Below, in pieces: positions 1 through 27,372 of a DNA stretch of 39,636 nucleotides. The DNA comes from a virus. The stretch lies in the IMG/VR virus record IMGVR_UViG_3300037851_001094, one strand, 5' to 3'. The notes beneath the pieces are model-generated. The model saw nothing but the letters and a program-made list of their open reading frames with translations, searched no databases and was not told the origin of the DNA. Position numbers and translations under genes: made by a program. The first letter of the stretch is position 1, and each line of letters starts with the position of its first letter.

Positions 1-127
1 GGCAAGATAGACTACGAAAAGGCTGAAGAAATTAGAAAAATGTTCTCTTTTGGCTATAAAATATGTCAACTAGCAAAGATGCATAAACTCTCATACTTCA
101 ACATTAGAGATATTATCAATAGACGCT
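1..127. repeat. Terminal direct repeat copy 1 (exact copy of 39510..39636); circular-closure overlap
   Basis: nt 1-127 (ggcaagatagactacgaaaagg...attatcaatagacgct) are identical to the last 127 nt of the window; the repeat lies inside an open reading frame. Confidence 0.95.
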
Positions 128-3124: not shown

Positions 3125-3396
3125 TGAAAGCAAGAGTTAGACAAGATATTTTAGATTCTCATTTAAAAGTACCTATTAAGCCGGCTATTCTAGACAAAGC
3201 AAGCGATTTAATATGTATAGACTGGAGTAAATGTTATGATTCGTGGCAACCGTCTAGCTATGAAGATGAAGAATGTAATTTATTTTTAGACGTGCCTGGA
3301 GTAGGAATCATTTTAGCAAAAAGTATTGACTTTGATTTTTTTACTAATGAAGAAGCTGAAAGCTTTGAAAATTCAAATAGGGGAAACAATGAATAA
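3124..3396 (+). CDS. early hypothetical protein, acidic
   Basis: 90 aa; TAATG stop/start overlap with the previous gene. Confidence 0.55.
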   Translation: MKARVRQDILDSHLKVPIKPAILDKASDLICIDWSKCYDSWQPSSYEDEECNLFLDVPGVGIILAKSIDFDFFTNEEAESFENSNRGNNE

Positions 3397-3598
3397 GAAA
3401 GACTTTGATTATAAATATGCTGCCGAACGAATGAAGTACTTTTTTGATAAATTTCCACCGCATGTAACAATCTTTACCGTAAATAGACAAGTTGCAAAAT
3501 CTGGAATGAGTGCAATCATTCACGCGTTTGTGATTAAAGACAATTGTTTTGAAGCAACCAAAATAAGCATTGAAGAAGAAAAACAAAAAGGAGACTGA
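3389..3598 (+). CDS. early hypothetical protein
   Basis: Internal ATG 3389 (MNKKDFDYKY...) preceded by GGGGA; 8-nt overlap with the previous gene. Confidence 0.5.
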   Translation: MNKKDFDYKYAAERMKYFFDKFPPHVTIFTVNRQVAKSGMSAIIHAFVIKDNCFEATKISIEEEKQKGD

Positions 3599-3831
3599 TG
3601 TTTATTAAAATCTGTAGGAAGTCTCAATACGGACGCATAAGGTTTTACCCCATGTGTCCAATTAGCCGTACGCTGACCTATATTCTAGGACGAAAGGCGT
3701 TAACGCAGCCGATTCTTGACATCTTGCGTCAACAAGGCTGGAAGATAGAAGAAGTTAAAGAACCGAAAAAAGACCCATGGACGGTAGTCGATGAAAAACC
3801 GCCAGAAACGGAGATTAAAACCAATGAGTGA
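3598..3831 (+). CDS. early hypothetical protein
   Basis: 77 aa; one-base stop/start overlap (TGATG, sharing nt 3598) with the previous gene. Confidence 0.5.
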   Translation: MFIKICRKSQYGRIRFYPMCPISRTLTYILGRKALTQPILDILRQQGWKIEEVKEPKKDPWTVVDEKPPETEIKTNE

Positions 3832-3967
3832 ACCAAGTTTAGCAGAAGCGCAAGCCGATGGTTATGAACTTGCCCGGGAGCTGTTTTGGGATACCCATAA
3901 TCGGGAACCAACGGAAGAAGAGTTACAGGAAGAATACGAAGCGTTATGCGAAAAATATAGGGATTAA
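3824..3967 (+). CDS. small acidic hypothetical protein (47 aa)
   Basis: Hand translation MSEPSLAEAQADGYELARELFWDTHNREPTEEELQEEYEALCEKYRD*; 8-nt overlap with the previous gene; below the ORF-track size cutoff. Confidence 0.4.
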   Translation: MSEPSLAEAQADGYELARELFWDTHNREPTEEELQEEYEALCEKYRD

Positions 3968-10528: not shown

Positions 10529-11098
10529 TTAGTTTACCGTGTAAATGATGGTTCCGGCAATCCCTGAACCGTTTACAAAATGAGTGTCATTTAAAATTAA
10601 ACTTGTAATACCGCTTCCAACGCCAAAAAAGTTTAAAGTTGTTCCAGGAGCGGTTTGAATACTAGAGCTTAAATAAGTAGTTGCTACCGGAAAAGTTACA
10701 GAGTTGGTTTGCACATTCCCTGTAGTTCCTACGTTGCTCGCTCCGGTTGTTACAGGCAAACTAGCAATGGCCATCGTTCCTACAGAAGTTCCTTTATTGA
10801 CCAAAGTAACGTTGAAATAGGCAGTAACAATATCCCCGACTTGTGTGTACCAGCCCAACTGAACTCCATAAACGATACCGACGCTTGCGCCCCCAAAAGT
10901 GACCGTAGGAGTCCAAGGGGTTGTGTTTGTAAAGGTCGTAACTCCAGTGTTCGTAATCGTGGGACTCCCTGCCGTTCCATCCCCGTTTGTGATATTTATC
11001 CCCGTCCCTGCGGTTAAAGTCCTTCCATTCCAAACCCCACCAGCGGTAATAGATTGGAATCCAGTTTGTGTTGCATCGACTGCGTTGTTAAAGCTCAT
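10529..11098 (-). CDS. tail-fibre tip protein (WTP jelly-roll-like C-terminal domain)
   Basis: 189 aa, G/T/N-rich. ...TPWTPTVTFGGASVGIVYGVQLGWYTQVGDIVTAYFNVTL...IASLP parallels the preceding gene. AAGGAG RBS; separated by a 105-nt AT-rich spacer. Confidence 0.65.
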   Translation of the reverse strand: MSFNNAVDATQTGFQSITAGGVWNGRTLTAGTGINITNGDGTAGSPTITNTGVTTFTNTTPWTPTVTFGGASVGIVYGVQLGWYTQVGDIVTAYFNVTLVNKGTSVGTMAIASLPVTTGASNVGTTGNVQTNSVTFPVATTYLSSSIQTAPGTTLNFFGVGSGITSLILNDTHFVNGSGIAGTIIYTVN

Positions 11099-11203
11099 AT
11101 AACTCCTTAATAATAAAACCCTATCATTTTAATTCGTAAATCAAAAGTTGGCTAATGTCATTTTTTCTTCTCAATAATTTAAATAACAAATATTTTAAAT
11201 TTT

Positions 11204-11650
11204 TTACACTAAATAAAATCCTGAAATATCTGCTGTTCCTGTATTATCCATTGAAACAGGCAAGTTAGTGTTGTTTGTACGTGTTCCCTCAAGGATGATC
11301 TGCGTCGATGATCCTTGAATCTCTCCCATGATCTGCACCGTTCCCGCTGGCAAAACGATGTTGGATAAATTTACCGTCACGTCGTAGTGGTAATTGGCCA
11401 AGTTCCTAGAGGTAAAAGGGAGTGTCTGGATCAGCATATTGCCCGTTCCCGTGTGGGCTGTCCAAGTAACTGTACCGGACAAAAATACCAGGTTCCCGAT
11501 TCGGGTATAAGTCCCTGCCTGGACAGTGTAAGTGCCTACGCCTGCTGCTGTCGACCCCGCAATTATCGGTGTCCAGCTTCCCTGATCTATGTACTGATCG
11601 AGAGAGTTGCTTGGAGTCATTGACAGATTAAGCGAGTTCGCATTAGACAA
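11204..11650 (-). CDS. tail-fibre tip protein (WTP jelly-roll-like domain)
   Basis: 148 aa. GSWTPIIAGSTAAGVGTYTVQAGTYTRIGNLVFLSGTVTWTAHTGTGNMLIQTLPFTS. Confidence 0.65.
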   Translation of the reverse strand: MSNANSLNLSMTPSNSLDQYIDQGSWTPIIAGSTAAGVGTYTVQAGTYTRIGNLVFLSGTVTWTAHTGTGNMLIQTLPFTSRNLANYHYDVTVNLSNIVLPAGTVQIMGEIQGSSTQIILEGTRTNNTNLPVSMDNTGTADISGFYLV

Positions 11651-11825
11651 GCGTTACCTCTTTCCAAACAGCTGCATCAGGTGTCAGATCAGTTGGCCAA
11701 AAAAGCTGTTCGGAAACTTCGTTAAACCAAAAAATCGGCGTTTTATAGTCGCTATCCAGCGCAGTAGGGCTGTGATCCGTTATGATCGTGTAACTGTTAC
11801 CAGTCGTGATTGGTTCGTTTGCCAA
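11643..11825 (-). CDS. small hypothetical protein within the fibre operon
   Basis: 60-aa ORF filling the gap between two fibre genes, with short overlaps. Confidence 0.45.
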   Translation of the reverse strand: MANEPITTGNSYTIITDHSPTALDSDYKTPIFWFNEVSEQLFWPTDLTPDAAVWKEVTLV

Positions 11826-11835
11826 TATAACTCCT

Positions 11836-13584
11836 TTACGATAAAGTCCAGTTGCCTATTACGCTCGTTGCGAACCAAATTGATCCCGTAGAGCGGAAAA
11901 CAAGCGTTAATGCATCCCCATCATCGCTGCTTGTGGCCAATCCGCCAGATGTCGAAATCGAGTTGCCAATTTGAATGAATTGTCCAGGTTGCGCATCTAC
12001 GACCAGAGTGGTAGCACCTACCCTCACAACTCCCAACGATGCGCCTTGCGCCGCACCAGCTTGTGTTGTGATGGTGACCGCTCCTCCCCCCGTAGCAAAA
12101 TATCCTTCATCATCTTGAGCTGTTACGTTCACCGCGGTGTCTACATAGGTAATCCCATTGATCGTGATGGTGTTCGAACCGTTTCCGCTAGTGCGGATTC
12201 CAGCTCCACCCACCAAGTTCATTTGGCCGCCAACCGATTGCGCAGTAGTCGCGCCATCCATAACCCAATCTGTAGGAACAGAACCGGCTACGTTTATGGT
12301 GATGGTGTTCCCCGCTCCAGTTGTACCTATATGCGATCCCGTGAGGATTTGTAGAGTATTCCCGACTGGGACGGCTGATCCCACATCCGCATTGTAGTTA
12401 GTGGCTACTGAACCTTCTACCGCCACTGTAATGGTGTTGCCTGCTCCGGATGTGTCAATTCCTGTACCACCCAAGACGTTTAGAACAGATGCCACAGGTG
12501 TTGCTGAACCAGCATCCTCAGTAAAAGTAATTGGAATGGAGCCTGATGCTTGAACAAACCCATCCGTTACAGTAAATTGGGATGAGTCAAAAGAAGCTAC
12601 TCCCCTTACACTGGATGCACCAGGGGCGACGTCCGTTTCTGCCCATGGCCTCCATCCAAATTTGATTTGGACTGTGGCAGGATCAATACCTGCTGCCGTA
12701 AGGGGATTGACGGCATCAGAACAATATTCATATTGCCCTGGGCCTGCAACATAATTGACTCCTCCACCCGTGACAATGAAACTGTTTTGATATGACCTGA
12801 CTACGGGGCCGCCAGCGGCAAAGTTTATAAGAGGATTAATAGATGTAAGCGAATTATAATTTAGGACGCACGTTCCACCTACCTGCATGTCGATACAAGA
12901 GCCGCCATTAGCTATGAGCTGAGATCTAGAAAACTCAATGTTTCCCCCCGCATTGTCAAAAACGATATTTCCATTGCTAGAGACTAAAATGCAGGTATCG
13001 CAAAACAATGAAGCAGGATTTTGTATGTCAAAACAGCTATTATTGGAATCTACTCTACAATCAAACATGCGAACAGTAGCCGAGCCTATTTCGTAAAATA
13101 CGGCTGAACTATTAGATGAACTCACATTGCACCGATTCATTTTAATATCGCTGTCTTGAGCATGAATGGCAAAATTTGTATTGGAAGTAAAGGTGCAATC
13201 TTCAGCCCATACAGTGCTTCCAGCTCCAACTAGATCGATAGCATATGCTGCGAGTCCCGAAATGAATAAATTCTCTAGCCTACAATCTCCTCCAACAGGA
13301 GCAGTTAGCGTTCCTTCAATTACGACTCTACCATAAGAGCCGCCTCCTGAAGAAACCCCACTAGATTGACATTCGACGCCAATGATATCTACGCCTGGCT
13401 GAAGCGTAATATTACCTACATAAGCGGAATTTTTATGGCGCACTAAAACAACGCTGCCACCCGCAGCAAAAGCATCCGTTACAGCATCCTGAATGGAGGT
13501 ATAATTAACCCCTGCACCTAACGTTTCTCCAACAACAAAAGATGTTGGGCCGAAATTGTTCGTGCTATTAGTCCTTCCTGGCAT
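11836..13584 (-). CDS. tailspike-like protein: N-terminal right-handed beta-helix (depolymerase-like) plus C-terminal fibre repeats and shared C-terminal domain
   Basis: 582 aa. PbH1-like coils (EDCTFTSNTNFAIHA, NRCNVSSSNSSAVFY, FDCRVDSNNSCFDIQ, CDTCILVSSNGNIVF), hinge GVASFDSSQFTVTDGFVQASG, three copies of the ...LGG.GI.TSGAGNTITV unit, C-terminus GDALTLVFRSTGSIWFATSVIGNWTLS. Confidence 0.75.
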   Translation of the reverse strand: MPGRTNSTNNFGPTSFVVGETLGAGVNYTSIQDAVTDAFAAGGSVVLVRHKNSAYVGNITLQPGVDIIGVECQSSGVSSGGGSYGRVVIEGTLTAPVGGDCRLENLFISGLAAYAIDLVGAGSTVWAEDCTFTSNTNFAIHAQDSDIKMNRCNVSSSNSSAVFYEIGSATVRMFDCRVDSNNSCFDIQNPASLFCDTCILVSSNGNIVFDNAGGNIEFSRSQLIANGGSCIDMQVGGTCVLNYNSLTSINPLINFAAGGPVVRSYQNSFIVTGGGVNYVAGPGQYEYCSDAVNPLTAAGIDPATVQIKFGWRPWAETDVAPGASSVRGVASFDSSQFTVTDGFVQASGSIPITFTEDAGSATPVASVLNVLGGTGIDTSGAGNTITVAVEGSVATNYNADVGSAVPVGNTLQILTGSHIGTTGAGNTITINVAGSVPTDWVMDGATTAQSVGGQMNLVGGAGIRTSGNGSNTITINGITYVDTAVNVTAQDDEGYFATGGGAVTITTQAGAAQGASLGVVRVGATTLVVDAQPGQFIQIGNSISTSGGLATSSDDGDALTLVFRSTGSIWFATSVIGNWTLS

Positions 13585-13591
13585 ATTTTAC

Positions 13592-15025
13592 CTATCCTAT
13601 TTTCCATGCGGCAAAGCGCGTTGTAATTAATGGAGGAGCATTTCCAGCTAAGGTAACCGTAAGTGTTGAGTTTGATACCACAAACCTAACTACAACAGTC
13701 TGCCCTGCTATTAAATCAATCACGTCATGACATAGCCAATTGAGAGAATTAGAGGTAAGCTCCCTCATAGCCCCTGCATTCTGGGATTGACCAACATAAG
13801 TGGTTCCAGCCGCTAAAAAGAAAGCCGTTCCTGAAGTGTGTGCTGCCCCGATGTTTAAGGCGGCTATTGTTGCTTCGAAAAAATATCTTCCATCAGAAGG
13901 AGCAGTAAATGTCCCTGTAGCATTGTCATAGACACCACCTTGGTCAAATATTTCCGTGTCGAATACAACTGTCACCGTCGTTCCGTTTCCTGTGGCGTTT
14001 AGGGTATTTGCCGACTTATAAGCAGAGAACATAGGCAAAGAGGAATTGTTGCCCGTCAAGTTAACAAACCCATCCGATACAGCAAATTGCGTGCTGTCGA
14101 AACATGCGGTTCCTCTTACGCCTCCAGGAAGCGTTGCATTAGCCGCTGTTCCGGCATGAGGCTGCCAATCCACAAAATTAGTAAGAATTGCATTGTTGAC
14201 CAAAGCAGTTCCCATCAACGCTAAATCATAGAATTCGAAAGTAGAAACATTGTCTATGTAATTTCCAGAAACAGCACTTGAATCAACAGAACAGTGTTCT
14301 AAATCGACTAATTCGCCATTATTTACGCCAAGAACCGCTTCTTGAGGGCAAGATATATTACAAAACTCCATCCTCATACGATTGCCTGTTCCTGTGATGC
14401 TCACACCATAGTCAACAGACGCATCAAAGATAGAGTTGAAAGCGCGCAGACGAGCATCGCCGCTCATCACTACCACAGTGCCCCCTTGGAGCTGCGAATT
14501 AATAATAAATATCGAATTATGCTCTAGAAAATCTGCCGCTATCAAAGTTCCGACAATCCGGCACTCTCGAAAGGCAAATTGAGATAAAGTTCCAGAAGTA
14601 TTGCTTACGACAACACCTCTATTTCCTTGAAGAGAGCAATTAGCGACATCGACTACAATCGTAGGGCCGACTCCTTGAATTACCAAAGCATCGGCGGGAT
14701 CAGTAATGGTTAGATTTTTCAGGGCATATTGAACTCCGCCAGCAGTCGTCGAATCAATCGTAACAGTTCCTGAAACTACAGCATTATTGGAGAAAACAGA
14801 ACCAGCAGCGACCCCTTCCACCAAAATTCCAGGAGCCATCGTAAAGCCGCTGTAAGAGCCTGGACGCACCAAAATAGTGCATGGATTGGCAGCAGTAAAG
14901 CCATCAGCAACAGCTTGAGTAATGGCCGACTGAATCGAAGTAAAGTTGCACCCATTCCCTAAAACAGTGCCAACCACATAACTAGATGGGCCAAACTTAT
15001 TTGTACTGTTGGAAGGGGATGCCAT
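13592..15025 (-). CDS. tailspike-like protein: N-terminal beta-helix plus C-terminal C1q/TNF-like domain
   Basis: 477 aa. N-terminus paralogous to 11836 and 15035 ORFs (NSTNKFGPSSYVVGTVLGNGCNFTSIQSAI), hinge GTACFDSTQFAVSDGFVNLTG, C-terminus FSAYKS...VVFDTEIFDQGGVYDNATGTFTAPSDGRYFF...LIAGQTVVV...TRFAAWKIG. Confidence 0.75.
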   Translation of the reverse strand: MASPSNSTNKFGPSSYVVGTVLGNGCNFTSIQSAITQAVADGFTAANPCTILVRPGSYSGFTMAPGILVEGVAAGSVFSNNAVVSGTVTIDSTTAGGVQYALKNLTITDPADALVIQGVGPTIVVDVANCSLQGNRGVVVSNTSGTLSQFAFRECRIVGTLIAADFLEHNSIFIINSQLQGGTVVVMSGDARLRAFNSIFDASVDYGVSITGTGNRMRMEFCNISCPQEAVLGVNNGELVDLEHCSVDSSAVSGNYIDNVSTFEFYDLALMGTALVNNAILTNFVDWQPHAGTAANATLPGGVRGTACFDSTQFAVSDGFVNLTGNNSSLPMFSAYKSANTLNATGNGTTVTVVFDTEIFDQGGVYDNATGTFTAPSDGRYFFEATIAALNIGAAHTSGTAFFLAAGTTYVGQSQNAGAMRELTSNSLNWLCHDVIDLIAGQTVVVRFVVSNSTLTVTLAGNAPPLITTRFAAWKIG

Positions 15026-15034
15026 AAACTTTCC

Positions 15035-16477
15035 TTAAGCTAAAACCCAGTTGCCCACTATACTTTCCGCACACCACCTAGTTCCTGCCGCGTAAAAAAC
15101 AAGAACGAGACAATCTCCAGTATTTGTGCCCGTGGCCGTACCACCGCCACTCGAAGTTAAACTTCCTACTTGGATAGTCTGGCCAACATTCGCTTGAACA
15201 ACTGTAGGGGAATTAATAGAGAAAATTCGGAATTGTTCACCTTGAGTTGGAGCTGCTGGGAGAGTGTAAGTATTGGGGCCGACATCGAAATATCCCGTGT
15301 CGACATTTAAGACCCCAGGCAAAGCAACATCAATCCATTCAACACTAGAGATGGTCATTGCCGCGCCAGCTCCGTTTGTCGTAACACCTGGGCCGCCTAG
15401 AATTTGAACTACCCCAGCTACAGGAGTAGCATTACCTGTGTCTCCATTAAGTTGGGTAATAGGCCCGCTTGTTGAACCAGAAATGCTGACAAAACCATCA
15501 GATACGCTAAAGTCGGTACTATTGAACGAAGCAGTTCCGCGGTTAGACCCCACTGCTGCTGCCGCTGATTCGCCATAAGGCTGCCAATTTAGTTTTTGTG
15601 AAGTAAGGGCAGCTCCAATACCTTGAGCAGTACCAGTTAAAGCAATATCCACAAAATCGACTTGACCGCCTGCACCATCTATCCAATTACCACTCGCAGC
15701 AGCAGAAGAAATTGTACAATGAGAAGCAACACATTGGCCACCACCAGCAGGGAAAAAAACAGCCTCATTTCCTGAAAAAATGTCAGTATGACTAAAAGTG
15801 GCGTTTCCATTCGCAACTACGCCGTTGAAAACATAAGAACTTGAAGATGCATTCCCATTTTCCACACTTAAACTTCCACTTCCAGCAGTTAGCAAGAAAA
15901 CATCTCCTGACGCAGAGTTGCACGAACCCAGGCTTAAAAGAGCGGCAGAAGATCCCGCGCCAATCGCTTCAAAACAATGAGAAGAGCTGCCAATATTGGT
16001 GTTGTCGGTAGAGAATTGACAGGCTGAAATAGCATCGGGATTGAAAACAATTGCTCTAGAAGCAGGATCAGTAGTCGCATCCAGCCCAGAAAACTTGCAA
16101 GCAAAGATGATCTGCGCACCCGCTGTTGCCGTCAAAGTGACAAGATCTCCAACAGTACATGTCAAGGAGATGTCGTTCATGATGCATACAGCAAATCCCC
16201 CAGCTTGCGTAAAGGTGTGATTCCCGCTGATTACTACATGTCCCAAGAAAGGAGGCAATCTCCCGTCTACCTGTTCGGCCCGCAGATTAACTCCAGAACG
16301 TAAAACGAGATTCTCGGTATAGGTTCCAGGCTTTATATAGACTTCGCCGCCGCCTGCCGCAAAACAATCATCAATTGCGCTTTGTACGGTAGAATAGTTG
16401 CAGCCGTCTCCTAAAACCGGTCCTACAAGGAAAGGCGATGAAAAGAATTTGTTATCGCTAGAGTTTCTTCCTGGCAT
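15035..16477 (-). CDS. tailspike-like protein: N-terminal beta-helix plus shared C-terminal fibre domain
   Basis: 480 aa. MPGRNSSDNKFFSSPFLVGPVLGDGCNYSTVQSAIDDCFAAGGGEVYIKPGTYTENL, hinge GTASFNSTDFSVSDGFVSISG, C-terminus GDCLVLVFYAAGTRWCAESIVGNWVLA. Confidence 0.75.
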   Translation of the reverse strand: MPGRNSSDNKFFSSPFLVGPVLGDGCNYSTVQSAIDDCFAAGGGEVYIKPGTYTENLVLRSGVNLRAEQVDGRLPPFLGHVVISGNHTFTQAGGFAVCIMNDISLTCTVGDLVTLTATAGAQIIFACKFSGLDATTDPASRAIVFNPDAISACQFSTDNTNIGSSSHCFEAIGAGSSAALLSLGSCNSASGDVFLLTAGSGSLSVENGNASSSSYVFNGVVANGNATFSHTDIFSGNEAVFFPAGGGQCVASHCTISSAAASGNWIDGAGGQVDFVDIALTGTAQGIGAALTSQKLNWQPYGESAAAAVGSNRGTASFNSTDFSVSDGFVSISGSTSGPITQLNGDTGNATPVAGVVQILGGPGVTTNGAGAAMTISSVEWIDVALPGVLNVDTGYFDVGPNTYTLPAAPTQGEQFRIFSINSPTVVQANVGQTIQVGSLTSSGGGTATGTNTGDCLVLVFYAAGTRWCAESIVGNWVLA

Positions 16478-16552
16478 TTTTACCTCTATTTTTCCATTCC
16501 AAATACTGTTGATAATTCAAAAATGGCCACCAAGGGTTCATAACATACCTCT

Positions 16553-17353
16553 TTAAGCTAAGATCCAGTTGCCAGCAGCTCCAGGAACACAGACCCAAAC
16601 TTGACCAACCGCTCTAAAGACAAGCCTTAAAGAATCGCCTATTTGAGTGCTGGTAGCAGTTCCGTTTACACTAGAACTTGTATTGCTAATGCGGATCAAA
16701 TCGCCGCCTTGGGCAGTAACAACCACACCCCCGCCGATGAAGTCAACGATTTCGACCATATCGCCATTAATCGCACCAGCAGGGAGCGTATAAGCGGCTG
16801 CGGCCGTTGCAAAATATCCTGTATGGTTAGCAAGCGCACCGCCAGCAGAATCGAGCCAGGAAGTAGTCCCGCTCAAAGCAGAGACGAAGCCATTACCATC
16901 AACAGTGAATTGAGCTGAGTTGAAAGAACAAAGACCCACGTTATTGGCTACACTTCCTGCCGCTGCAATAGCTCTTTGAACTTCAATTTGATAAGTATTG
17001 GCCGCCAAAGAATTGCTTCTTACTGGGATAGATTGAGCAGCAACGACAGCGCCATTGACTGTCATCAAACCAGCGCCTGTAGGAACCACAGGATTTGTTC
17101 CAGGAGCTGTAAAAGCTTGAACAGCGATGCTATCGACTCCGACTGAACCGCCAGCTAAATCAATAGTAATGTTTGGAGCCGAATATCCAATTGTGATAGT
17201 TCCTAAAGGAGAAGTAAGATTACCTACCCGAATATTAGGAGCTGCTGTAGACCCGATTAAGAGCTCACCGTTTGTTGTGACTTGCCCTGGGAATTTAGCC
17301 CCGTCAAAGCGTACGTTGTCAGCGTACATTACATCATTATCAAAACCTGCCAT
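16553..17353 (-). CDS. tail-fibre protein with shared C-terminal domain
   Basis: 266 aa. Hinge GLCSFNSAQFTVDGNGFVSALSG; C-terminus GDSLRLVFRAVGQVWVCVPGAAGNWILA. Confidence 0.7.
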   Translation of the reverse strand: MAGFDNDVMYADNVRFDGAKFPGQVTTNGELLIGSTAAPNIRVGNLTSPLGTITIGYSAPNITIDLAGGSVGVDSIAVQAFTAPGTNPVVPTGAGLMTVNGAVVAAQSIPVRSNSLAANTYQIEVQRAIAAAGSVANNVGLCSFNSAQFTVDGNGFVSALSGTTSWLDSAGGALANHTGYFATAAAAYTLPAGAINGDMVEIVDFIGGGVVVTAQGGDLIRISNTSSSVNGTATSTQIGDSLRLVFRAVGQVWVCVPGAAGNWILA

Positions 17354-17366
17354 ATTATATCTCCTA

Positions 17367-18347
17367 TTATGGGGCTGTTACGGAGCGCAAAACTGCGCGC
17401 CATTCAATAGTTAATCCAGCGACTCCAGTAACTTGAACAATTGCGTTATTGCCAGCGATGACCACCGTTGCATCTGCTGCAAGCATGGCCGCTTCTTCAT
17501 TAGAAGTGACATCTGGGGTGCCGGTCAAAAATCCAGCGACTCCTGTAGTTCTTGCCCCTGCAATAACAGAATAAGAAGCTCCTACTGGAGTTCCAGGACC
17601 TGCGCTTGCAAACCCAGCAACTAAAACGTCGAAAGCGACTGTTGCAGGGACTGCAGGCAAAGTGAAAGTGATTACGTTGCCTGTTACTGCTCCCACAGTT
17701 GTTACAGTTCCAGAAGTAGTACCGGATAACTGAACAAAGCCTGTTGTGACGGTGAATTGTGTTGAGTCATAACTAGAGACTCCTTTTTGAGCCGTTATGA
17801 TCGTTCCAGCCGTTGCATCAGCGGCTGTTACTGTGACGGTAGAGCCTGCTCCAGAAGTAGAAATCCCTTGAACCGCAGTACCAAGAACGTTTAAGTTTCC
17901 GGCAGCGGGAATTGCAATTCCTGCATCTGTAGTGTATTGAGAAGCAAGCAATGCGCCAGCAGTCAATTGGTCGCCAACAATAGTGATTGTTGTGCCATCA
18001 ACTTTGACGTTAATATTTACAATCCCAGGAGGGCCCGGGGTAATGTTTATTGCTCCGGCATTTGTAAGATTGATATTGCCTGCAAGTGGAGCAACACCGT
18101 TGAGTGTAGAAAGCGCGCCTGCGCCCCCACCAACTGGAATCCAGCTAGCAATGTTGTTTGATTTGGAAACCAAAACATACGCAGATCCGGCTGATTTGTC
18201 GATCCATCGATCGCCGACATTATACCCATGAAGGTCAGAGGTCGTTGGAGGTCTTCTTCTTACAAAGTTATTGCCGGGGGTAAAATCTGTAATCCCCAAG
18301 TAGGCCATGTTGTTTGTAAGAGCAGTTGGAGTTGATGTAATAGTCAT
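17367..18347 (-). CDS. tail-fibre protein with N-terminal anchor-like motif
   Basis: 326 aa. FVRRRPPTTSDLHGYNVGDRWID...WIPVGGG parallels the 22682 ORF; hinge GVSSYDSTQFTVTTGFVQLSG; first gene of the fibre operon. Confidence 0.7.
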   Translation of the reverse strand: MTITSTPTALTNNMAYLGITDFTPGNNFVRRRPPTTSDLHGYNVGDRWIDKSAGSAYVLVSKSNNIASWIPVGGGAGALSTLNGVAPLAGNINLTNAGAINITPGPPGIVNINVKVDGTTITIVGDQLTAGALLASQYTTDAGIAIPAAGNLNVLGTAVQGISTSGAGSTVTVTAADATAGTIITAQKGVSSYDSTQFTVTTGFVQLSGTTSGTVTTVGAVTGNVITFTLPAVPATVAFDVLVAGFASAGPGTPVGASYSVIAGARTTGVAGFLTGTPDVTSNEEAAMLAADATVVIAGNNAIVQVTGVAGLTIEWRAVLRSVTAP

Positions 18348-18625
18348 GAGATTCTTCCTTGTAAGCTTTCGTCAAATGGCAACCCAAAGCTCGAGAAAGC
18401 CTCTACAAGAAGAGCCGTTCTAAAGCCGAGGTAGCCCAATGGAGTGACTTTTGGCGCAGCCATTGTTTTTGCTCGGTTATGTATTCGCGTCACCGATACT
18501 GCCTGGTATTGGTAACTAAAATCTTTACTTACATTAAAATAATAATTATGTCAACGAAGTGGAAAAAAAAGATGGTTGTGCATTAATCGACGAGAATGTA
18601 TGTTAGGTCTTTTACAGGAGTATCT

Positions 18626-19324
18626 ATGAAAAAAGCAGTCCTTGGATTGACAGCCGTTACAGCACTCGCAACCGTTGGAATCAGAAGTGAAGAACCCTCA
18701 AAAATTCTAGACAAACATCACTTCAGCATTGGCCCTACGGTCATGAAGCCGAACATGAAATTTGAAGGAAAATATTCTTCCAGGTTTAATCCTTGGATGC
18801 GAAATCTTAACCAGGTTTTCTATGGTCTAAAATTTGGGTATGAGTACTTAAGCGAAGATGCTTTTTATTTCGGTGCTGATCTTCATTCAGGTATCCATCA
18901 GTGCGCGGGGCGCGGAGATTGGTCTTTGGGAAAGATGGACTTGCGCTTTGGCTATACCCTTCCGTTCTTTTCCATTTTCGATAAACACTGGGATGTATCC
19001 ATTTTTACGGGCTTTGGAGGCTATGCGTGGAAGGATGCCTTCGGAGACAGCTATGATACCCCCTTTTGGCACCTCGGTGCTAGAACCCGAATCATTACCG
19101 GTCAAAACATGGATCTTGGATTACACGTCAAATGGCTGGCTTTCCAAGACACACATGAAACCAATAGAGCTAAATTTTTTGGAGCCGAAGTCGGACTGCC
19201 CTTTACATTCAAACCTCTCCAAAGTGGGTGGGAGTTTTCTTTGGCTCCTCATTTCGTTCATATGTGTCGCACGAGTTCACAGAATGTTATGCATTATGAG
19301 CTCAAGGCAACAAGGCGGTTTTAG
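18626..19324 (+). CDS. outer-membrane beta-barrel protein with signal peptide (Lom/Ail/OmpX-like moron)
   Basis: MKKAVLGLTAVTALATVG signal peptide after an AGGAG RBS (ORF track starts at 18596). Alternating amphipathic strands (LRFGYTLPF, VSIFTGFGGYAW, DLGLHVKWLAF, FGAEVGLPFTF, WEFSLAPHFVH), C-terminal ...ATRRF. Antisense to flanking virion genes. Confidence 0.75.
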   Translation: MKKAVLGLTAVTALATVGIRSEEPSKILDKHHFSIGPTVMKPNMKFEGKYSSRFNPWMRNLNQVFYGLKFGYEYLSEDAFYFGADLHSGIHQCAGRGDWSLGKMDLRFGYTLPFFSIFDKHWDVSIFTGFGGYAWKDAFGDSYDTPFWHLGARTRIITGQNMDLGLHVKWLAFQDTHETNRAKFFGAEVGLPFTFKPLQSGWEFSLAPHFVHMCRTSSQNVMHYELKATRRF

Positions 19325-22681: not shown

Positions 22682-23446
22682 TTAAACGACGTTAAAATTT
22701 CCCTGGCTGCTTAATACATCCCATTCAGTATCGGCAGTGATACAAACTAACCTCACACAGCCTCTTTGAGTGAAAGTAGTGATATTTCCTCCAGGAGTAG
22801 TTGTTTGATTTCCAAAATAGATTGTTTGTCCCACATTAGGCATCAATTGCCATAAACCGGCCCCTTTCCCAGCCACTTCTTGGATGGTTCCGACAGGCGC
22901 CACAGCAGGCAAAGTTAATGGCACTAATCCTCCAGCATTGGCAATATAACCGGTATTTGGCGCCATAAGAGTTGGAATCGCCACTTCTATCCAAGTAAAC
23001 GAAGGTGGAATAACGCCAATGAAGGTTAGTTGGTTGCCAACTATTCCGATCGTGACGTTATCCACTTGAACCGCGGCGTCCATTTGGCCTAAACCGCCAT
23101 TCGAGAATTTAATAGCTCCTGTGGCGCCTCCCAGGAGGTCAATATTTAAACCTGAAGGATTCACGACTAACCCATCGTCTCCAGTCAAGGTGTTTAATAG
23201 ACCGGTACCAGCAGTAATAGGGAGCCAAATAGCAATATTGGCTTCTTTGCTATTGAGAATGAAAAATTCTGGGGTTAATTTGTTGTACCAAAGATCGCCT
23301 ACATCGTATTCTTTAAAATCGGTAATTTCTGGGTCTCGCTGTCGAACCACAATATTGGGAGGATTTGTCTCTTTTAGGCCTTGATAGCCCAGAGAGTTGG
23401 TATTCGGAATTGGCATAAGTAAGTACTCTTTTCTTACATCTACCAT
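22682..23446 (-). CDS. tail-fibre/adaptor protein with N-terminal anchor-like motif and shared C-terminal domain
   Basis: 254 aa. VVRQRDPEITDFKEYDVGDLWYN...WLPITAG, TLTGDDGLVVNPSGLNIDLLGG unit, C-terminus RGCVRLVCITADTEWDVLSSQGNFNVV. Alternative start at ATG 23416. Confidence 0.65.
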   Translation of the reverse strand: MVDVRKEYLLMPIPNTNSLGYQGLKETNPPNIVVRQRDPEITDFKEYDVGDLWYNKLTPEFFILNSKEANIAIWLPITAGTGLLNTLTGDDGLVVNPSGLNIDLLGGATGAIKFSNGGLGQMDAAVQVDNVTIGIVGNQLTFIGVIPPSFTWIEVAIPTLMAPNTGYIANAGGLVPLTLPAVAPVGTIQEVAGKGAGLWQLMPNVGQTIYFGNQTTTPGGNITTFTQRGCVRLVCITADTEWDVLSSQGNFNVV

Positions 23447-24078: not shown

Positions 24079-24526
24079 ATCCGGCGTAAGCCGCTGGCAC
24101 TGTTAAGATGACTTGTGTGGTATTAACTTCCAACATCGACGTATTCGCCCCCCCTTGAGGGAACGGAACCCACAAAGTCCCGCCGGCATTTTTTCCCGTT
24201 CCATAAATATGAGTGAATGTAAATGCCGGCGTCGTAGTGATGCCGTGATTCTCAGCATTCGCACCCGCGACCAGTGCAGCAGAAAACGGAACCACTTTGC
24301 GGAACGTTTGGCGCGCTTGTTGAGCATTAGCAGGGTCAAAGTACTGCTGACCAGTCAATTGCTCTTGTAGGAAGAATGCGCCTATTTCTCGGGCATTTAC
24401 ATTGTTAGCGATGTCTTTGTACAAATTTGTGAGCACAACCCTAAACTCGGATTCATCCTCGGGGAAGTATTGGCTCGTCTTGAGGAAGGGAGACAAAGCA
24501 TTTATAGGCTGGAAATTGAGCGTCAT
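24041..24526 (-). CDS. virion structural protein (tail-associated, function unknown)
   Basis: 161-aa ORF; ATGA overlap with the 949-aa gene upstream. Confidence 0.55.
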   Translation of the reverse strand: MTLNFQPINALSPFLKTSQYFPEDESEFRVVLTNLYKDIANNVNAREIGAFFLQEQLTGQQYFDPANAQQARQTFRKVVPFSAALVAGANAENHGITTTPAFTFTHIYGTGKNAGGTLWVPFPQGGANTSMLEVNTTQVILTVPAAYAGFTAIVILEYLKN

Positions 24527-27372
24527 GTAATCAACCGTCCAGTTGGTGAAAACGAGAAAATTAAACCATGAAGCGTTACGTCACTGAAAGAAATTGTAGG
24601 ATTGCGAATTTGAGAATTCATTGTACAGCCACTTACGGGATCTAAAACGCCATCATTCAGATTCATGCTTAGCTGGATAAAAGAACCGGAAGTATTGGAA
24701 TAGACCCGATGCCAGATTTTTTCTTGCAAGTCTTGAAAAGAGGGGCCAACTTGATCAGGAGAAGTATTCATAATGTCCGATTTAACAACCGTATTAACAT
24801 CATAAGAAGAAAGATAATCGATATTAATTTGGCCCCCATCTGTGCTTTCTGCAAGAATATCGATTCGAGGCAAACGGACGCCTCTTCCTTCTTTATAAAA
24901 GGGATTATAAAGCTTTGTGCGAATATCAAAATTCTGGACGATTCTTATGGTCCCCCCTCCTTGATATACGCCGGCAAAAGCCTTGCAGTTATCTATGACA
25001 AAAGAGTTAGTCAATGTACTCATGACTTGATAGATGCCATCGATCGGCGCATCGGGATCGGCGGTTGTAACTCCAACAGGATTGAATAGCTGAACGAATT
25101 GGCCAACTTTAAGGTTATGGTTTACAGAAGTGATCGTACAGTTTTGAGTCGTAGTCATATTATCTAAACAAAGCACCGGATCATTTTTAAAGATTCCCAA
25201 GGATTGATTGATGATCATTACAAACCCTTGTTGATTCCCCGCAACGACCAAAGGATATTTAGCAAATTTAGCATTGGAAACCCAGGTGTATCCAGGGCTA
25301 TTCCAGGGAAATTTAGCCTGGGCCCACGTTAGGTCTGTTGCTGACTGGAAGTATCCAAAACAAGTAAATGAGTCGTCGAAATTGGCAAAAGAGCCATCGA
25401 GATAGTTATAAACTAAAAATCGACTAGGATAGACGAGCTGTTCAGAAGCCACAGGGAAAGTCCAATAAACAAGCTGAAATGTATAATCTCTGATGCCATG
25501 GACCCGTTTGACCCCATTATTTAAGTTGGCAAAATCAAAAACCTCATCGGGGATCTTTTGATCCAATCGGGCGACATTGACACTATTGCACGTTGTAATC
25601 CCATAATTCCCGACAGCAAAGACCCCTTGATCGAAAGGCACCACTGAAAAAGTAGATTCACAACCAAGCTCTGTGTTGATCTTTTGGAAGACAAAGGGAA
25701 GAACTTCATTCCCCGTATAAACGAGTTGCCAAGTAGAGCGCTCAAAATAGACAATTAAAGTATCTTTAATGAATTCTACAGAGACTATAGCCTCATTCGT
25801 AGGCGCATCAATAAAGCCGCCCTTTCCTGGAGTATCACTCCACCAAGCGTCTTGTTGAGCCGCTTGGTTAGCTGGAAGCTCAAAAGTTCCGTTTGGCGCA
25901 ACAAAAGGAGGTGGCGATACATTTCCTACATAGAAAGGCGTTCCGTTTTGGGACCATCGAGCCCTTTGAGCAAAATTTACTGGAGCATTTACAGCATCGC
26001 CTTCGAACGTGTTAAAACAGATTAACCTGTCTTTATATGTAACGATAGCCAAACACCCTCTTAAAAATTGGATTTGCGTTTGATCTGTAGGATTATTCAA
26101 TGGAGGCTGGAAATTTACCCACCCAACATCAGGAATGGTGCCAGGTCCATCATACCAACGAATTCCATCTCCAGAGCCTCCGACTGAAGCAGCATTTCCG
26201 CGAGCAACAAGATAAGCCACCCCTCCGCTTATATAAGCTGTAAAACCTGTAGAATTGATGTTAACTGTAAAATTTCCTGCGGCAATTGCAGTTACGGTTC
26301 CAGTTAAACCATTAATTTCTGTCATGCCCAAGACGTGCGTAAATCCAATGACATCGCCGACTTGGAAAGGATGAGCCGCCAATGATACAACGGCGGCGGC
26401 AGCTTGAGTGATATTGGAAATAAGCGAGAAGGCATAGCTGCCCACAACATCATTTGTGGTCCACAGGGCGCCGCGCCAATTATAGGTCCAAAAAAAGTTA
26501 AAGTCCGTACCAATCCAAGAAAAAGGAGTTGTAACACTCGGAGGATCGTCCGGCGTTTTATAAAAAGTTACATCTAAAAAGTCGGCATTAAAAAAGTAAG
26601 ACTTTTGCGTGTCAAATGCCACCAAACCTTCATCGTTTAAGGAAGAGGCTTCTCGAGTTCTGAGGCCCATAACAGGAAGGCAAGGAGCAAAACTATAACT
26701 TACCGTAGCCGTATAAGGACCTCCGGCTGGGAGAGAATTGAAGAAAATCGTAAATGCACCAGTGAGATAGTTTATGACATTGAAATTCGGTCCTACGGTC
26801 GCGATCCGATTCGCTGTTCCACCCGACACATATGGATTGAAAAGCGTGCTATCGACATTGATATCGAAAGTATTTCCAACGACATTTGAGACTGTAAAGG
26901 TATTTCCATTAAGTTCAAACATCCCTTGAATTCCATCGAAATGAACTTGATCTCCAGCCGCAAAATATACAGGAGCGCTCAAAGTTACATTCGCAGGATT
27001 GGCGTTGGTGATATTCGTAACCGTATCTGGAGCTGTAGTTTCTGCAAGCCTTCCATCCCCTAAATCTTCAAAAGTCACCGGAGGAACAGAGTTGATTGTG
27101 ATTGTAATTGTTCCTGGAGCCACAGGAAGGCTAGTTAATAAACCCGATAAAGTTGTCGATGCTGCCAGAATTCCGGCAAATGTCTGAGTTACTTGTCTCT
27201 TTAGGCGACCATCGGGGCCTACAGCTAGATATCCCGATTTTCTTTCAATTCTGCCCCTAAAAAGATAACAGTTCTCTAAAGCTGGGAAGCTGTCATTATC
27301 AGGGAGGAAAGGCTCTACATCTCTGCGTACACCATCTCGGAGATTGACAACAGCATAAGGTGCCATTCCCAT
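24523..27372 (-). CDS. large tail (nozzle / tail-tubular-B-like) protein carrying three inserted small beta-barrel repeats
   Basis: 949 aa, beta-rich and not tape-measure-like; largest virion gene; position after capsid/adaptor genes. Repeats such as ISNITQAAAAVVSLAAHPFQVGDVIGFTHVLGMTEINGLTGTVTAIAAGNFTVNINSTGFTAYISGG. Confidence 0.55.
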   Translation of the reverse strand: MGMAPYAVVNLRDGVRRDVEPFLPDNDSFPALENCYLFRGRIERKSGYLAVGPDGRLKRQVTQTFAGILAASTTLSGLLTSLPVAPGTITITINSVPPVTFEDLGDGRLAETTAPDTVTNITNANPANVTLSAPVYFAAGDQVHFDGIQGMFELNGNTFTVSNVVGNTFDINVDSTLFNPYVSGGTANRIATVGPNFNVINYLTGAFTIFFNSLPAGGPYTATVSYSFAPCLPVMGLRTREASSLNDEGLVAFDTQKSYFFNADFLDVTFYKTPDDPPSVTTPFSWIGTDFNFFWTYNWRGALWTTNDVVGSYAFSLISNITQAAAAVVSLAAHPFQVGDVIGFTHVLGMTEINGLTGTVTAIAAGNFTVNINSTGFTAYISGGVAYLVARGNAASVGGSGDGIRWYDGPGTIPDVGWVNFQPPLNNPTDQTQIQFLRGCLAIVTYKDRLICFNTFEGDAVNAPVNFAQRARWSQNGTPFYVGNVSPPPFVAPNGTFELPANQAAQQDAWWSDTPGKGGFIDAPTNEAIVSVEFIKDTLIVYFERSTWQLVYTGNEVLPFVFQKINTELGCESTFSVVPFDQGVFAVGNYGITTCNSVNVARLDQKIPDEVFDFANLNNGVKRVHGIRDYTFQLVYWTFPVASEQLVYPSRFLVYNYLDGSFANFDDSFTCFGYFQSATDLTWAQAKFPWNSPGYTWVSNAKFAKYPLVVAGNQQGFVMIINQSLGIFKNDPVLCLDNMTTTQNCTITSVNHNLKVGQFVQLFNPVGVTTADPDAPIDGIYQVMSTLTNSFVIDNCKAFAGVYQGGGTIRIVQNFDIRTKLYNPFYKEGRGVRLPRIDILAESTDGGQINIDYLSSYDVNTVVKSDIMNTSPDQVGPSFQDLQEKIWHRVYSNTSGSFIQLSMNLNDGVLDPVSGCTMNSQIRNPTISFSDVTLHGLIFSFSPTGRLIT

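What the first reader, a model, noticed from the sequence alone, without database searches (positions are those of the whole stretch)
10529..18347. Eight-gene receptor-binding arsenal built from shuffled modules (about one fifth of the genome)
Seven consecutive minus-strand genes (17367-18347, 16553-17353, 15035-16477, 13592-15025, 11836-13584, 11204-11650, 10529-11098) plus 22682-23446 are G/T/S/N/V-rich beta-type proteins. Together they span about 8.2 kb of coding sequence and share short modules in different combinations.
(i) An N-terminal anchor-like motif, VVRQRDPEITDFKEYDVGDLW / FVRRRPPTTSDLHGYNVGDRW, occurs only in the 22682 and 17367 ORFs.
(ii) A hinge motif occurs in five: GVASFDSSQFTVTDGFVQASG, GTACFDSTQFAVSDGFVNLTG, GTASFNSTDFSVSDGFVSISG, GLCSFNSAQFTVDGNGFVSALSG, GVSSYDSTQFTVTTGFVQLSG.
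(iii) A ~35-aa unit D.G.A.P....L..LGG.GI.TSGAGNTITV occurs one to three times per protein.
(iv) A common C-terminal domain ends GD.L.LVF...G..W......GNW.L in three of them, with a degenerate version in the 22682 ORF.
(v) A WTP...G.Y..[IV]G jelly-roll-like tip occurs in the last two.
Only two proteins carry the anchor-like N-terminus, which suggests a branched assembly in which the others dock onto them, as in known multi-tailspike phages such as CBA120 or G7C. Nucleotide identity between paralogs is low by eye, so these are old, diversified duplications rather than an assembly artefact.
Basis: partly seen in the sequence, partly recalled or inferred. Interest (0 to 1): 0.75.

Follow-up and report, generated by a model that had tools for sequence, protein, structure and literature searches.

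The report
Modular nine-gene phage tail-fibre arsenal
An uncultured 39.5-kb short-tailed phage spends a fifth of its genome on nine tail-fibre and tailspike genes assembled from interchangeable modules, a new variant of the known multi-receptor-binding-protein strategy rather than a new kind of system.

Summary
All eight ORFs and all quoted motifs are at the stated coordinates. The shared modules are real homology: blastp E-values reach 1e-29 with composition correction, against one hit in 20 shuffle rounds.

The window is a complete circular podovirus genome (127-bp terminal repeat). The proteins are tail-fibre or tailspike-like:
- Three carry right-handed beta-helices.
- One ends in a C1q head.
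- Two end in a widespread fibre-tip domain.
- Four end in a beta-sandwich knob whose best structural matches are CBA120 TSP4-N, T4 gp10 and the Pa223 spike.

Across 176 metagenomic homologues the same modules recombine into about 70 architectures. Position is strict: the anchor is N-terminal in 78 of 83 proteins and the knob is C-terminal in 103 of 103. Relatives fuse modules that are separate genes here.

- A ninth gene exists. It is a conserved 60-aa anchor-only ORF (11643-11825) overlapping the start of 11204-11650.
- The anchor-less proteins carry two further conserved N-terminal modules.
- The 35-aa unit is detected in four proteins, not all eight.
- The 22682 gene probably starts at 23416.

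Branched docking is plausible but unproven. The knob looks like XD1 or a distal head, not the XD2/XD3 docking domains. Verdict: new variant of a known kind, moderate interest.

The parts
22682..23446 (-). g22682: N1 anchor (aa 11-100, nt 23147-23416) + short stalk + C-terminal knob 'domIV' (aa 148-254, nt 22685-23005). It has no enzymatic body. It is a conserved core fibre or adaptor encoded in the tail-gene block, downstream of the 949-aa nozzle-like gene and a 161-aa gene and just upstream of the internal-protein genes. The true start is probably nt 23416.
   Evidence: 21 homologues share the N1-domIV architecture, about 244 aa each. The L001 orthologue is syntenic at 54% identity. AF2 pLDDT 84. 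Foldseek best hits are CBA120 TSP4-N, KP1 baseplate, Pa223 spike and T4 gp10. Start position.
17367..18347 (-). g17367: N1 anchor (aa 1-92) + one shaft repeat (137-176) + hinge (183-213) + private C-terminal head 'C17367' (210-326). It is the first gene of the cluster.
   Evidence: Full-length orthologues P0145 and P0137 are 56-57% identical. In L001 and P0146 a beta-helix sits between the same anchor and head.
16553..17353 (-). g16553: N2 N-terminal module (aa 1-70) + 'mid' module (70-135) + hinge (134-166) + domIV knob (163-266).
   Evidence: L009 4707-5501 has the same body (54% identity) but with an N1 anchor instead of N2. The L014 orthologue is 61% identical.
15035..16477 (-). g15035: N3 peptide + right-handed beta-helix (aa 1-307) + hinge (308-338) + one shaft repeat (342-378) + domIV knob (378-480).
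   Evidence: Orthologues are 57% (L009) and 66% (L014) identical. N3 conservation.
13592..15025 (-). g13592: N3 peptide + beta-helix (aa 1-296) + hinge (300-329) + C1q/TNF-like head (328-477).
   Evidence: Pfam C1q PF00386 scores 30.5 bits against a cut-off of 23.7. PDB sequence hits are cerebellin, C1q and EMILIN. In P0012 this beta-helix is fused upstream of a g11836-like beta-helix.
11836..13584 (-). g11836: N3 peptide + beta-helix (aa 1-320) + hinge (323-352) + three shaft repeats (353-478) + domIV knob (476-582).
   Evidence: Pfam Beta_helix E 4e-6. AF2: beta-helix and knob pLDDT above 90, shaft low as a monomer. Foldseek hits are AlgE4, GH110, pectin methylesterases, and the HK620, CBA120 TSP3 and Det7 tailspikes.
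11643..11825 (-). orf60 (not in the finding): a 60-aa stand-alone anchor-like protein. TTG start behind an AAGGAG site. Its stop overlaps the g11204 start by 8 nt.
   Evidence: 58% identical to the N-terminus of the L009 195-aa protein and weakly N1-like. The same 60-aa gene overlapping the 148-aa gene occurs in L014 (61% aa identity at 55% nt identity; other frames closed).
11204..11650 (-). g11204: short N-terminal peptide + tipV domain (aa 20-148). A stand-alone fibre-tip protein.
   Evidence: Tip-family HMM E 3.7e-19. tblastn hits fall in tail-fibre or tailspike regions of S-CBP3, Klebsiella RMN1 and H6/1. PHROG hits align to the C-terminal parts of long tail-protein profiles.
10529..11098 (-). 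g10529: N2-type N-terminus with one shaft repeat (aa 1-57) + tipV domain (56-189). It is the last gene of the cluster.
   Evidence: 3,534 representatives match at E<=1e-3. The tip is C-terminal in 130 of 131 analysed hits. The N-terminal 55 aa recur at 55-71% identity on proteins with other C-termini.

Best explanation
The region encodes the host-adsorption apparatus of a complete, uncultured podovirus. It comprises nine genes (the eight reported plus a 60-aa anchor-only gene) for presumably trimeric fibres and spikes.

The proteins follow a combinatorial grammar: [N-terminal attachment module] - (body module - conserved hinge)n - [C-terminal head].
- Attachment modules come in three kinds. 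N1 is a ~90-aa anchor (g22682, g17367, and orf60 in divergent form). N2 is found in g16553 and g10529. N3 is a ~24-aa peptive capping the beta-helix (g15035, g13592, g11836).
- Body modules are polysaccharide-binding or -degrading beta-helices, ~40-aa shaft repeats, and a 'mid' module.
- Heads come in four unrelated kinds: the domIV beta-sandwich knob, C1q, tipV, and the private g17367 head.

Inferred mechanism:
- N1 proteins plug directly into the tail.
- g22682 is a conserved body-less fibre or adaptor.
- N2 and N3 proteins attach secondarily, to other fibres or to other tail sites. The particle would then display three different beta-helix spikes and several head types at once, broadening or layering receptor recognition.
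- The conserved hinge is the most DNA-conserved stretch. It acts as the junction at which modules are exchanged between phages.

Shown: homology, folds, positional rules, and split versus fused forms in relatives.
Inferred: virion location, trimer state, who docks on whom, and enzymatic activity.
For: Phage context:
- P22-like portal, capsid protein, TerL and nozzle-like protein.
- 127-bp terminal repeat.
- The seven cluster genes are co-oriented with 7-105-nt gaps, and all but g22682 have Shine-Dalgarno-like sites.

Folds:
- Beta-helix.
- C1q.
- Knob matching CBA120 TSP4-N, T4 gp10, Pa223 spike and KP1 baseplate.
- BFVD matches to tail-fibre-type proteins.
- tipV in annotated tail fibres or tailspikes and C-terminal in 130 of 131 hits.
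- Hinge plus repeat inside the Melnitz myophage tail fibre.

Grammar:
- About 70 architectures among 176 homologues.
- N1 is N-terminal in 78 of 83, domIV C-terminal in 103 of 103, and the g17367 head C-terminal in 17 of 17.
- The four heads show no profile-profile similarity.

Split versus fused forms:
- The L001 623-aa protein is the g17367 anchor + a g15035-like beta-helix + the g17367 head.
- P0005 is the g16553 N-terminus + a g11836-like beta-helix + knob.
- P0012 is the g13592 helix + a g11836-like helix.
- L009 has N1 on the g16553 body.

Conserved ends: N3 59% and hinge 50% identity, against 19-26% in the helix body.

Cassette replacement in the syntenic relative L014.
Against: - No protein-protein interaction, trimer model or virion proteomics is available.
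- AF2 monomers give low confidence for the hinge and shaft.
- N1 has no detectable relation to known anchors. There are no Pfam, PHROG or NCBIfam hits, and no PDB sequence hit even with a profile.
- The knob is probably XD1-like or knob-like rather than an XD2/XD3 docking domain. The CBA120-type hub mechanism is therefore not established.
- Foldseek TM-scores are low (0.15-0.33) because the models are multi-domain.
- Catalytic residues of the beta-helices were not examined.
Confidence: 0.62

Rival explanations
1. No fibre-on-fibre branching. N1, N2 and N3 are three orthogonal plugs. Each binds its own site on the tail (adaptor, nozzle, the 161-aa or 216-aa proteins), so the fibres form independent rings rather than a tree.
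For: - N1, N2 and N3 are interchangeable on the same body in relatives. This fits equivalent direct attachment.
- domIV is always terminal and resembles a distal knob or XD1, which does not dock partners in TSP4.
- Several conserved small tail genes of unknown role lie nearby.
Against: - Nine different proteins need many distinct sites on a short tail.
- The N3 peptide corresponds to an internal linker in fused proteins. This suggests end-to-end joining.
- A 60-aa anchor-only protein makes little sense without a partner.
Confidence: 0.22
2. A repertoire rather than a simultaneous display. Only a subset is incorporated per virion. Alternatively some are not virion-bound at all, for example soluble depolymerases or lectins released at lysis, or capsid-decorating spikes like Pa223 gp52.
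For: - The Pa223 capsid spike (N-terminal attachment, triple beta-helix, knob) is a top structural match of both models.
- Anchor-less beta-helix proteins are common in relatives.
Against: - The cluster genes are tightly spaced (7-105-nt gaps), co-oriented, and part of the structural-gene region.
- The conserved N-terminal modules argue for assembly into a particle.
- No invertase, DGR or other switching element was found, and there are no flanking inverted repeats.
Confidence: 0.12
3. Chance similarity between low-complexity G/T/S/N/V-rich ORFs, or an assembly artefact that duplicated sequence.
For: Composition is biased. One pair (g10529~g11204) loses significance under composition correction.
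Against: - Composition-corrected E-values reach 1e-29 and the shuffle control is near zero.
- There are hundreds of independent homologues.
- DNA identity among paralogues is low.
- The same contig is recovered in JGI and Logan data.
Confidence: 0.01

Closest known systems
CBA120 TSP1-4 branched tailspike complex (Ackermannviridae), with TSP4-N as hub
   Same: - Tandem RBP genes, a minority of which carry the particle anchor.
- Beta-helix spikes.
- The best PDB structural match of g22682 is TSP4 residues 1-335 (E 8e-6). The knob of g11836 hits it too.
   Different: - CBA120 is a myovirus with a baseplate.
- Its docking domains XD2 and XD3 are small jellyrolls placed N-proximally, before the beta-helix (PMC8825819). 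Here the shared sandwich is strictly C-terminal and more like XD1 or a knob.
- There is no sequence homology.
- This phage has nine proteins rather than four, and three attachment-module types.
Anchor-branch RBP systems of podoviruses: G7C gp66/gp63.1, KP32/K11/KP34, and the SP6/K1-5 adaptor gp37
   Same: - Podovirus setting.
- A primary anchored protein plus secondary RBPs that carry a short conserved N-terminal peptide (PMC6872550).
- g22682 has an anchor and a sandwich domain but no enzymatic body, which resembles the K1-5 adaptor concept.
   Different: - Those systems have two RBPs and a T4gp10 domain-2/3-like branching domain, which is not demonstrated here.
- Their anchors are T7 gp17-like, whereas N1 has no Pfam or PHROG match.
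- In this phage the beta-helix precedes a shaft and knob instead of ending the protein.
PhiK64-1/RaK2 and Menlow-group multi-depolymerase Klebsiella phages
   Same: Many RBP genes in one phage, with a mixture of anchor-bearing and conserved-peptide-bearing proteins.
   Different: Those are jumbo or large myoviruses with up to 11 depolymerases. Here a 39.5-kb podovirus carries three beta-helices plus non-enzymatic fibres and tip proteins.
Pseudomonas phage Pa223 capsid spike gp52
   Same: N-terminal attachment, triple-beta-helix shaft and C-terminal knob layout. It is a recurrent Foldseek hit of both models.
   Different: It sits on capsid three-fold axes and its knob is described as TNF fold. 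domIV shows no profile similarity to the C1q/TNF head in the same cluster.
Separate tip adhesins of T-even phages (for example T2/S16 gp38 on gp37). Comparison from general knowledge, not tested here.
   Same: Small stand-alone proteins (g11204, g10529) carry a domain that elsewhere forms the C-terminal tip of long fibres.
   Different: No homology to gp38 was tested or seen. Attachment to another fibre is inferred only.

Membership tests
Anchor-branched multi-RBP complex (CBA120 / G7C / KP32 type) | Two or more RBP genes adjacent in the structural module | tested here: met
   Seven plus one consecutive minus-strand genes at 10529-18347, plus g22682. The same layout occurs in relatives L001, L009 and L014.
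Anchor-branched multi-RBP complex (CBA120 / G7C / KP32 type) | A primary RBP with a conserved N-terminal particle anchor | tested here: inconclusive
   N1 behaves like an anchor. It is N-terminal in 78 of 83 proteins, is fused to many bodies, and is conserved across relatives. It has no homology to any known anchor, and binding to the tail is untested.
Anchor-branched multi-RBP complex (CBA120 / G7C / KP32 type) | A T4 gp10 domain-2/3-like (XD2/XD3) branching domain in the anchored RBP | tested here: inconclusive
   Foldseek links the g22682 and g11836 knobs to TSP4-N, T4 gp10 (prob 0.94) and CpaA. However, its ~105 aa, ~10 strands, co-hit to CpaA and terminal position fit XD1 or a knob, not XD2/3. 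No domain-level superposition was possible.
Anchor-branched multi-RBP complex (CBA120 / G7C / KP32 type) | Secondary RBPs with a short conserved N-terminal docking peptide | tested here: met
   N3 residues 1-24 are 59% identical across 15 proteins, against 19-26% in the body. N2 residues 1-55 are 55-71% identical on proteins with different C-termini.
Anchor-branched multi-RBP complex (CBA120 / G7C / KP32 type) | Demonstrated physical interaction between RBPs | not testable with these tools
   No multimer prediction or experiment is available. Only Rosetta-stone-type fusions in relatives bear on this.
Right-handed parallel beta-helix tailspike / depolymerase | Pectate-lyase-type beta-helix fold | tested here: met
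   PF13229 E 4e-6 (26.9 bits against a cut-off of 25.9) for g11836. AF2 pLDDT is above 90 over residues 30-310. Foldseek hits carbohydrate-active beta-helix enzymes and phage tailspikes. g15035 and g13592 are homologous to g11836.
Right-handed parallel beta-helix tailspike / depolymerase | Glycan-cleaving or deacetylating activity | not testable with these tools
   No catalytic-site analysis or assay was done.
C1q/TNF-like head domain | Match to the C1q domain model above the curated threshold | tested here: met
   g13592 residues 343-390 score 30.5 bits against a cut-off of 23.7. PDB sequence hits include cerebellin at 2.8e-8.
T7-like tail fibre (gp17 N-terminal domain) | Homology of the N-terminal attachment domain | tested here: not met
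   Neither g22682 nor g17367 matches any Pfam or PHROG family, even at E<=1 / 0.1.

The most novel reading that the evidence does not exclude
The particle carries a multi-tier, non-covalently assembled fibre tree. It is built with three orthogonal docking modules (N1, N2, N3).
- It includes a body-less adaptor (g22682).
- It includes a free-standing 60-aa anchor (orf60), translationally coupled to a tip protein.
- Beta-helix spikes join end-to-end in the order seen in the fused proteins of relatives.
If so, this would be a plug-and-play receptor-binding system, unrelated in sequence to the gp10-based ones, in a 39.5-kb podovirus.
Probability: 0.3. Interest if true: 0.65.

Novelty: new variant of a known kind. 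Interest (0 to 1): 0.45.

Why it matters
Multi-RBP phages are the main natural model for broad or programmable host range. The known branching systems all rely on T4 gp10-like domains and have been described mostly in phages of Enterobacteriaceae.

This uncultured clade seems to reach the same end with unannotated parts. Those parts are a new anchor, two further N-terminal modules, a universal hinge and four interchangeable heads. It packs nine such genes into a small podovirus.

The split and fused variants in relatives give a ready-made map of which pieces may interact. That map could guide RBP engineering and the annotation of thousands of 'hypothetical' metagenomic fibre proteins; the tip domain alone has more than 3,500 cluster representatives. 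Without an isolate or host, the biological pay-off remains prospective.

Tried and rejected
- Megablast of the region against cultured phages: no match.
- tblastn of g17367 and g10529 against cultured phages: no match.
- The search for related loci in IMG/VR with the 517-aa internal protein: nothing.
With A5 it gave only one partial hit, in a Pyrinomonadaceae MAG. No host could be assigned.
- PDB sequence and profile searches for g11836, g17367 and the g22682 family: nothing meaningful.
- NCBIfam: only weak pectin-esterase-like N-cap hits.
- Profile-profile comparison of the four head types: no relationship. The idea that domIV is a cryptic C1q/TNF domain is not supported by sequence.
- Frameshift fusion of orf60 with g11204: rejected. 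The same two overlapping genes are conserved as separate ORFs in L014, and the 148-aa protein stands alone in L009.
- Phase variation or a DGR shufflon: rejected. No invertase or reverse transcriptase was detected among the ORFs that were scanned, and there are no flanking inverted repeats.
- A literature search for a described phage group of this type found nothing relevant.


Full report
**What the window is.** The 39,636-nt window carries an exact 127-bp direct repeat at its two ends. It is therefore a circularly assembled, complete genome of about 39.5 kb.
- It encodes a P22-like portal, an HK97-type capsid protein, a large terminase and a 949-aa nozzle-like protein with E1_FCCH domains.
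- It also encodes ERF, RusA and PD-(D/E)XK recombination genes.
- There is no nucleotide-level match among 50,697 cultured phage records. Protein matches to cultured phages are only about 23-26% identical, to portals.
- The identical contig is present in JGI and Logan assemblies.

**Checking the observation.**
- All eight ORFs exist at the stated coordinates. They sum to 8,190 nt, 20.7% of the genome.
- They are G/T/S/N/V-rich (41-62%) and poor in charged residues.
- Each quoted motif is found in the stated protein. A six-frame regex scan finds the anchor signature only in those two ORFs; it finds the hinge signature in four of the five, and the g13592 hinge (Cys in place of Ser) was confirmed by exact-string match and hinge HMM.
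- With composition correction and SEG the main relationships remain highly significant (2e-29 to 1e-11). Shuffled controls gave one hit in 20 rounds.
- The two small terminal proteins share a domain by an independent family HMM (E 3.7e-19 for g11204).
- At the DNA level the only repeats among paralogues are the hinge (57 nt, 67-75%) and the last few codons. These are old, diverged copies and not an artefact.

**What the proteins are.**
- g11836 matches Pfam Beta_helix. Its AF2 model has a confident right-handed beta-helix over residues 30-310.
- That helix resembles alginate epimerase/lyase-type modules, GH110, pectin methylesterases and polygalacturonases. It also resembles the phage tailspikes HK620, CBA120 TSP3, Det7, Kp7 gp52 and phi29 gp12.
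- g15035 and g13592 are homologous over this region.
- g13592 ends in a C1q/TNF-type head above Pfam's threshold.
- g11204 and g10529 end in a domain ('tipV') with 3,534 cluster representatives at E<=1e-3. It is C-terminal in 130 of 131 analysed proteins of 129-1,178 aa.
- tipV also occurs in annotated tail-fibre or tailspike regions of S-CBP3, Klebsiella RMN1, Pseudoalteromonas H6/1 and DSL-LC05.
- The hinge plus first repeat occurs inside a 648-aa tail fibre of the Methylophilales myophage Melnitz.

**The shared C-terminal domain (domIV).**
- It is a confidently predicted ~105-aa beta-sandwich in both AF2 models.
- Its best PDB neighbours are CBA120 TSP4 residues 1-335, a Klebsiella KP1 baseplate chain, the Pa223 capsid spike, T4 gp10 and CpaA.
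- BFVD neighbours are mostly uncharacterised uncultured-phage proteins, with some minor tail, side-tail-fibre and Mtd-N-type proteins.

**The module grammar.** I built HMMs for ten modules from the window proteins. I scanned six related loci and all 176 homologues returned by three database searches.
- About 70 distinct architectures appear.
- The anchor N1 is N-terminal in 78 of 83 proteins.
- domIV is C-terminal in 103 of 103, and the g17367 head is C-terminal in 17 of 17.
- N1 is found fused to almost everything: knob alone, 2-8 shaft repeats plus knob, repeats plus C1q, repeats plus tipV, and beta-helix plus hinge plus head.
- The four head types never co-occur in tandem with one another and show no profile-profile similarity.
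- A hinge motif follows each body module, up to three or four times per protein in relatives.
- The N-terminal ~24 residues of the anchor-less beta-helix proteins (N3, MPGRxNSxNKFGxSxFVVG) are 59% identical on average and the hinge is 50%. The helix body is 19-26%.
- A second N-terminal module (N2) heads g16553 and g10529. It recurs at 55-71% identity on proteins with other C-termini.

**Split versus fused forms.** Relatives of about 40 kb share the genome layout and carry fibre clusters of five to nine genes. In them, pieces that are separate genes here are fused.
- L001 8117-9988 is the g17367 anchor (62% identity) + a g15035-like helix (40%) + the g17367 head.
- P0005 is the g16553 N-terminus + a g11836-like helix + knob.
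- P0012 and P0011 carry two beta-helices in series.
- P0040 strings together anchor, helix, two 'mid' modules and knob.
- L009 4707-5501 is the g16553 body with N1 in place of N2.
- The closest syntenic relative, L014 (orthologues 51-66% identical), shows cassette replacement. It has a different helix with a knob where g13592 has C1q, no shaft repeats in the g11836 orthologue, an inserted HNH gene, and a triple-C1q protein where g10529 sits.

**A ninth gene.** Between g11836 and g11204 lies a 60-aa ORF at 11643-11825.
- It has a TTG start behind an AAGGAG site. That ribosome-site-containing stretch (21 nt, 86% identical) also precedes g10529.
- It is 58% identical to the N-terminus of a 195-aa L009 protein and weakly similar to N1 anchors.
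- In L014 a 60-aa gene of identical length again overlaps the start of the 148-aa tip gene. Amino-acid identity is 61% at 55% nucleotide identity, synonymous sites are saturated, and the other frames are closed.
- It is therefore a conserved anchor-only protein, probably partnered with the tip protein. N1-repeat-tipV fusions exist elsewhere (P0147).

**Mechanism.**
- Shown: homology, folds, positional rules, conserved ends, and split or fused variants.
- Inferred: N1 proteins plug into the tail. g22682 is conserved, syntenic and body-less, and acts as a constant short fibre or adaptor. N2 and N3 proteins and the small tip proteins attach secondarily. The three beta-helices engage different surface polysaccharides. 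The hinge serves as the recombination joint.

**How far the CBA120/G7C analogy goes.** The analogy is reasonable and gains some support from the TSP4-N structural hit and from the conserved-peptide logic described for KP32, K1-5 and G7C (PMC6872550). However, the TSP4 paper shows that docking is done by the small XD2/XD3 jellyrolls. XD1 is a 99-aa sandwish also found in T4 gp9 and in the glycan-binding modules of CpaA and StcE, and it cannot dock trimers (PMC8825819). domIV's size, strand count, CpaA co-hit and strictly terminal position fit XD1 or a distal knob, like the Pa223 spike knob. Branching is therefore plausible but not demonstrated. Independent attachment to separate tail sites remains a serious rival.

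**Novelty and verdict.** Multi-RBP arsenals and modular fibre evolution are well known. New here are the unannotated module set, the three alternative N-terminal modules, the helix-before-shaft-and-knob order, the stand-alone anchor, and the density of such genes in a small podovirus of an uncultured clade. I rate it a new variant of a known kind, with interest about 0.45.

Noticed in passing
window 11643-11825 (-): Conserved 60-aa anchor-only ORF with a TTG start behind AAGGAG. It overlaps the g11204 start by 8 nt. The same two-gene arrangement is present in relative L014 (5271-5453 and 5450-5896).
   Followed up: yes
window 1-127 and 39510-39636: Exact 127-bp terminal direct repeat. The window is a circularly assembled complete genome of about 39,509 bp.
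   Followed up: yes
window 18596-19324 (+): An antisense 242-aa protein with a signal-peptide-like N-terminus and a C-terminal ...RRF. It has a weak match to an outer-membrane beta-barrel model (TIGR04565, E 0.03). It sits between the internal-protein genes and the fibre cluster. The equivalent antisense slot in relatives holds other accessory genes: Tad2-like in L001 and SSB in L009. It may be a moron and a hint that the host is Gram-negative.
   Followed up: partly
window 27988-28683 (-): An HNH endonuclease with two HTH domains lies inside the tail-gene block, between the 333-aa and 216-aa structural genes. L014 has a different HNH gene inserted inside its fibre cluster (3286-3894).
   Followed up: partly
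window 23416-23446 (-): The annotated ATG of g22682 lacks a ribosome-binding site. Most of the aligned orthologues start at the residue equivalent to M11 (MPIPN...). The gene is therefore probably 244 aa, starting at nt 23416.
   Followed up: partly
window 24523-27372 (-) and 30232-31191 (-): E1_FCCH (ubiquitin-E1-like) domains occur in the 949-aa nozzle-like protein (strong match). There is also a sub-threshold match (E 9e-4, 19.8 bits against a 29.5 cut-off) in a 319-aa protein next to the major capsid gene, which might be a capsid decoration or a second tail component.
   Followed up: no
L014 5906-7609; P0011, P0012, P0013: Relatives encode a 567-aa protein with three tandem C1q domains. 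They also encode ~800-aa proteins with two beta-helix modules in series, each followed by the hinge. These would be dual-specificity spikes in one polypeptide.
   Followed up: partly
window 37683-38949 (+): Two plus-strand genes separate the portal from the terminase genes on the circular map. One is 254 aa with a ParB-like DGQHR motif (my reading of the sequence, not a tool hit). The other is a Cys-rich 172-aa protein. Neither has a Pfam hit.
   Followed up: no
L012 (JBGAUY010000057.1) and L004 (GCA_040961015.1): The only genome-collection hit to the g22682 family is an 18-kb contig binned in a Pyrinomonadaceae (Acidobacteriota) MAG. Another relative sits in an NCBI MAG assembly. This may be a host clue or a binning artefact.
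   Followed up: no
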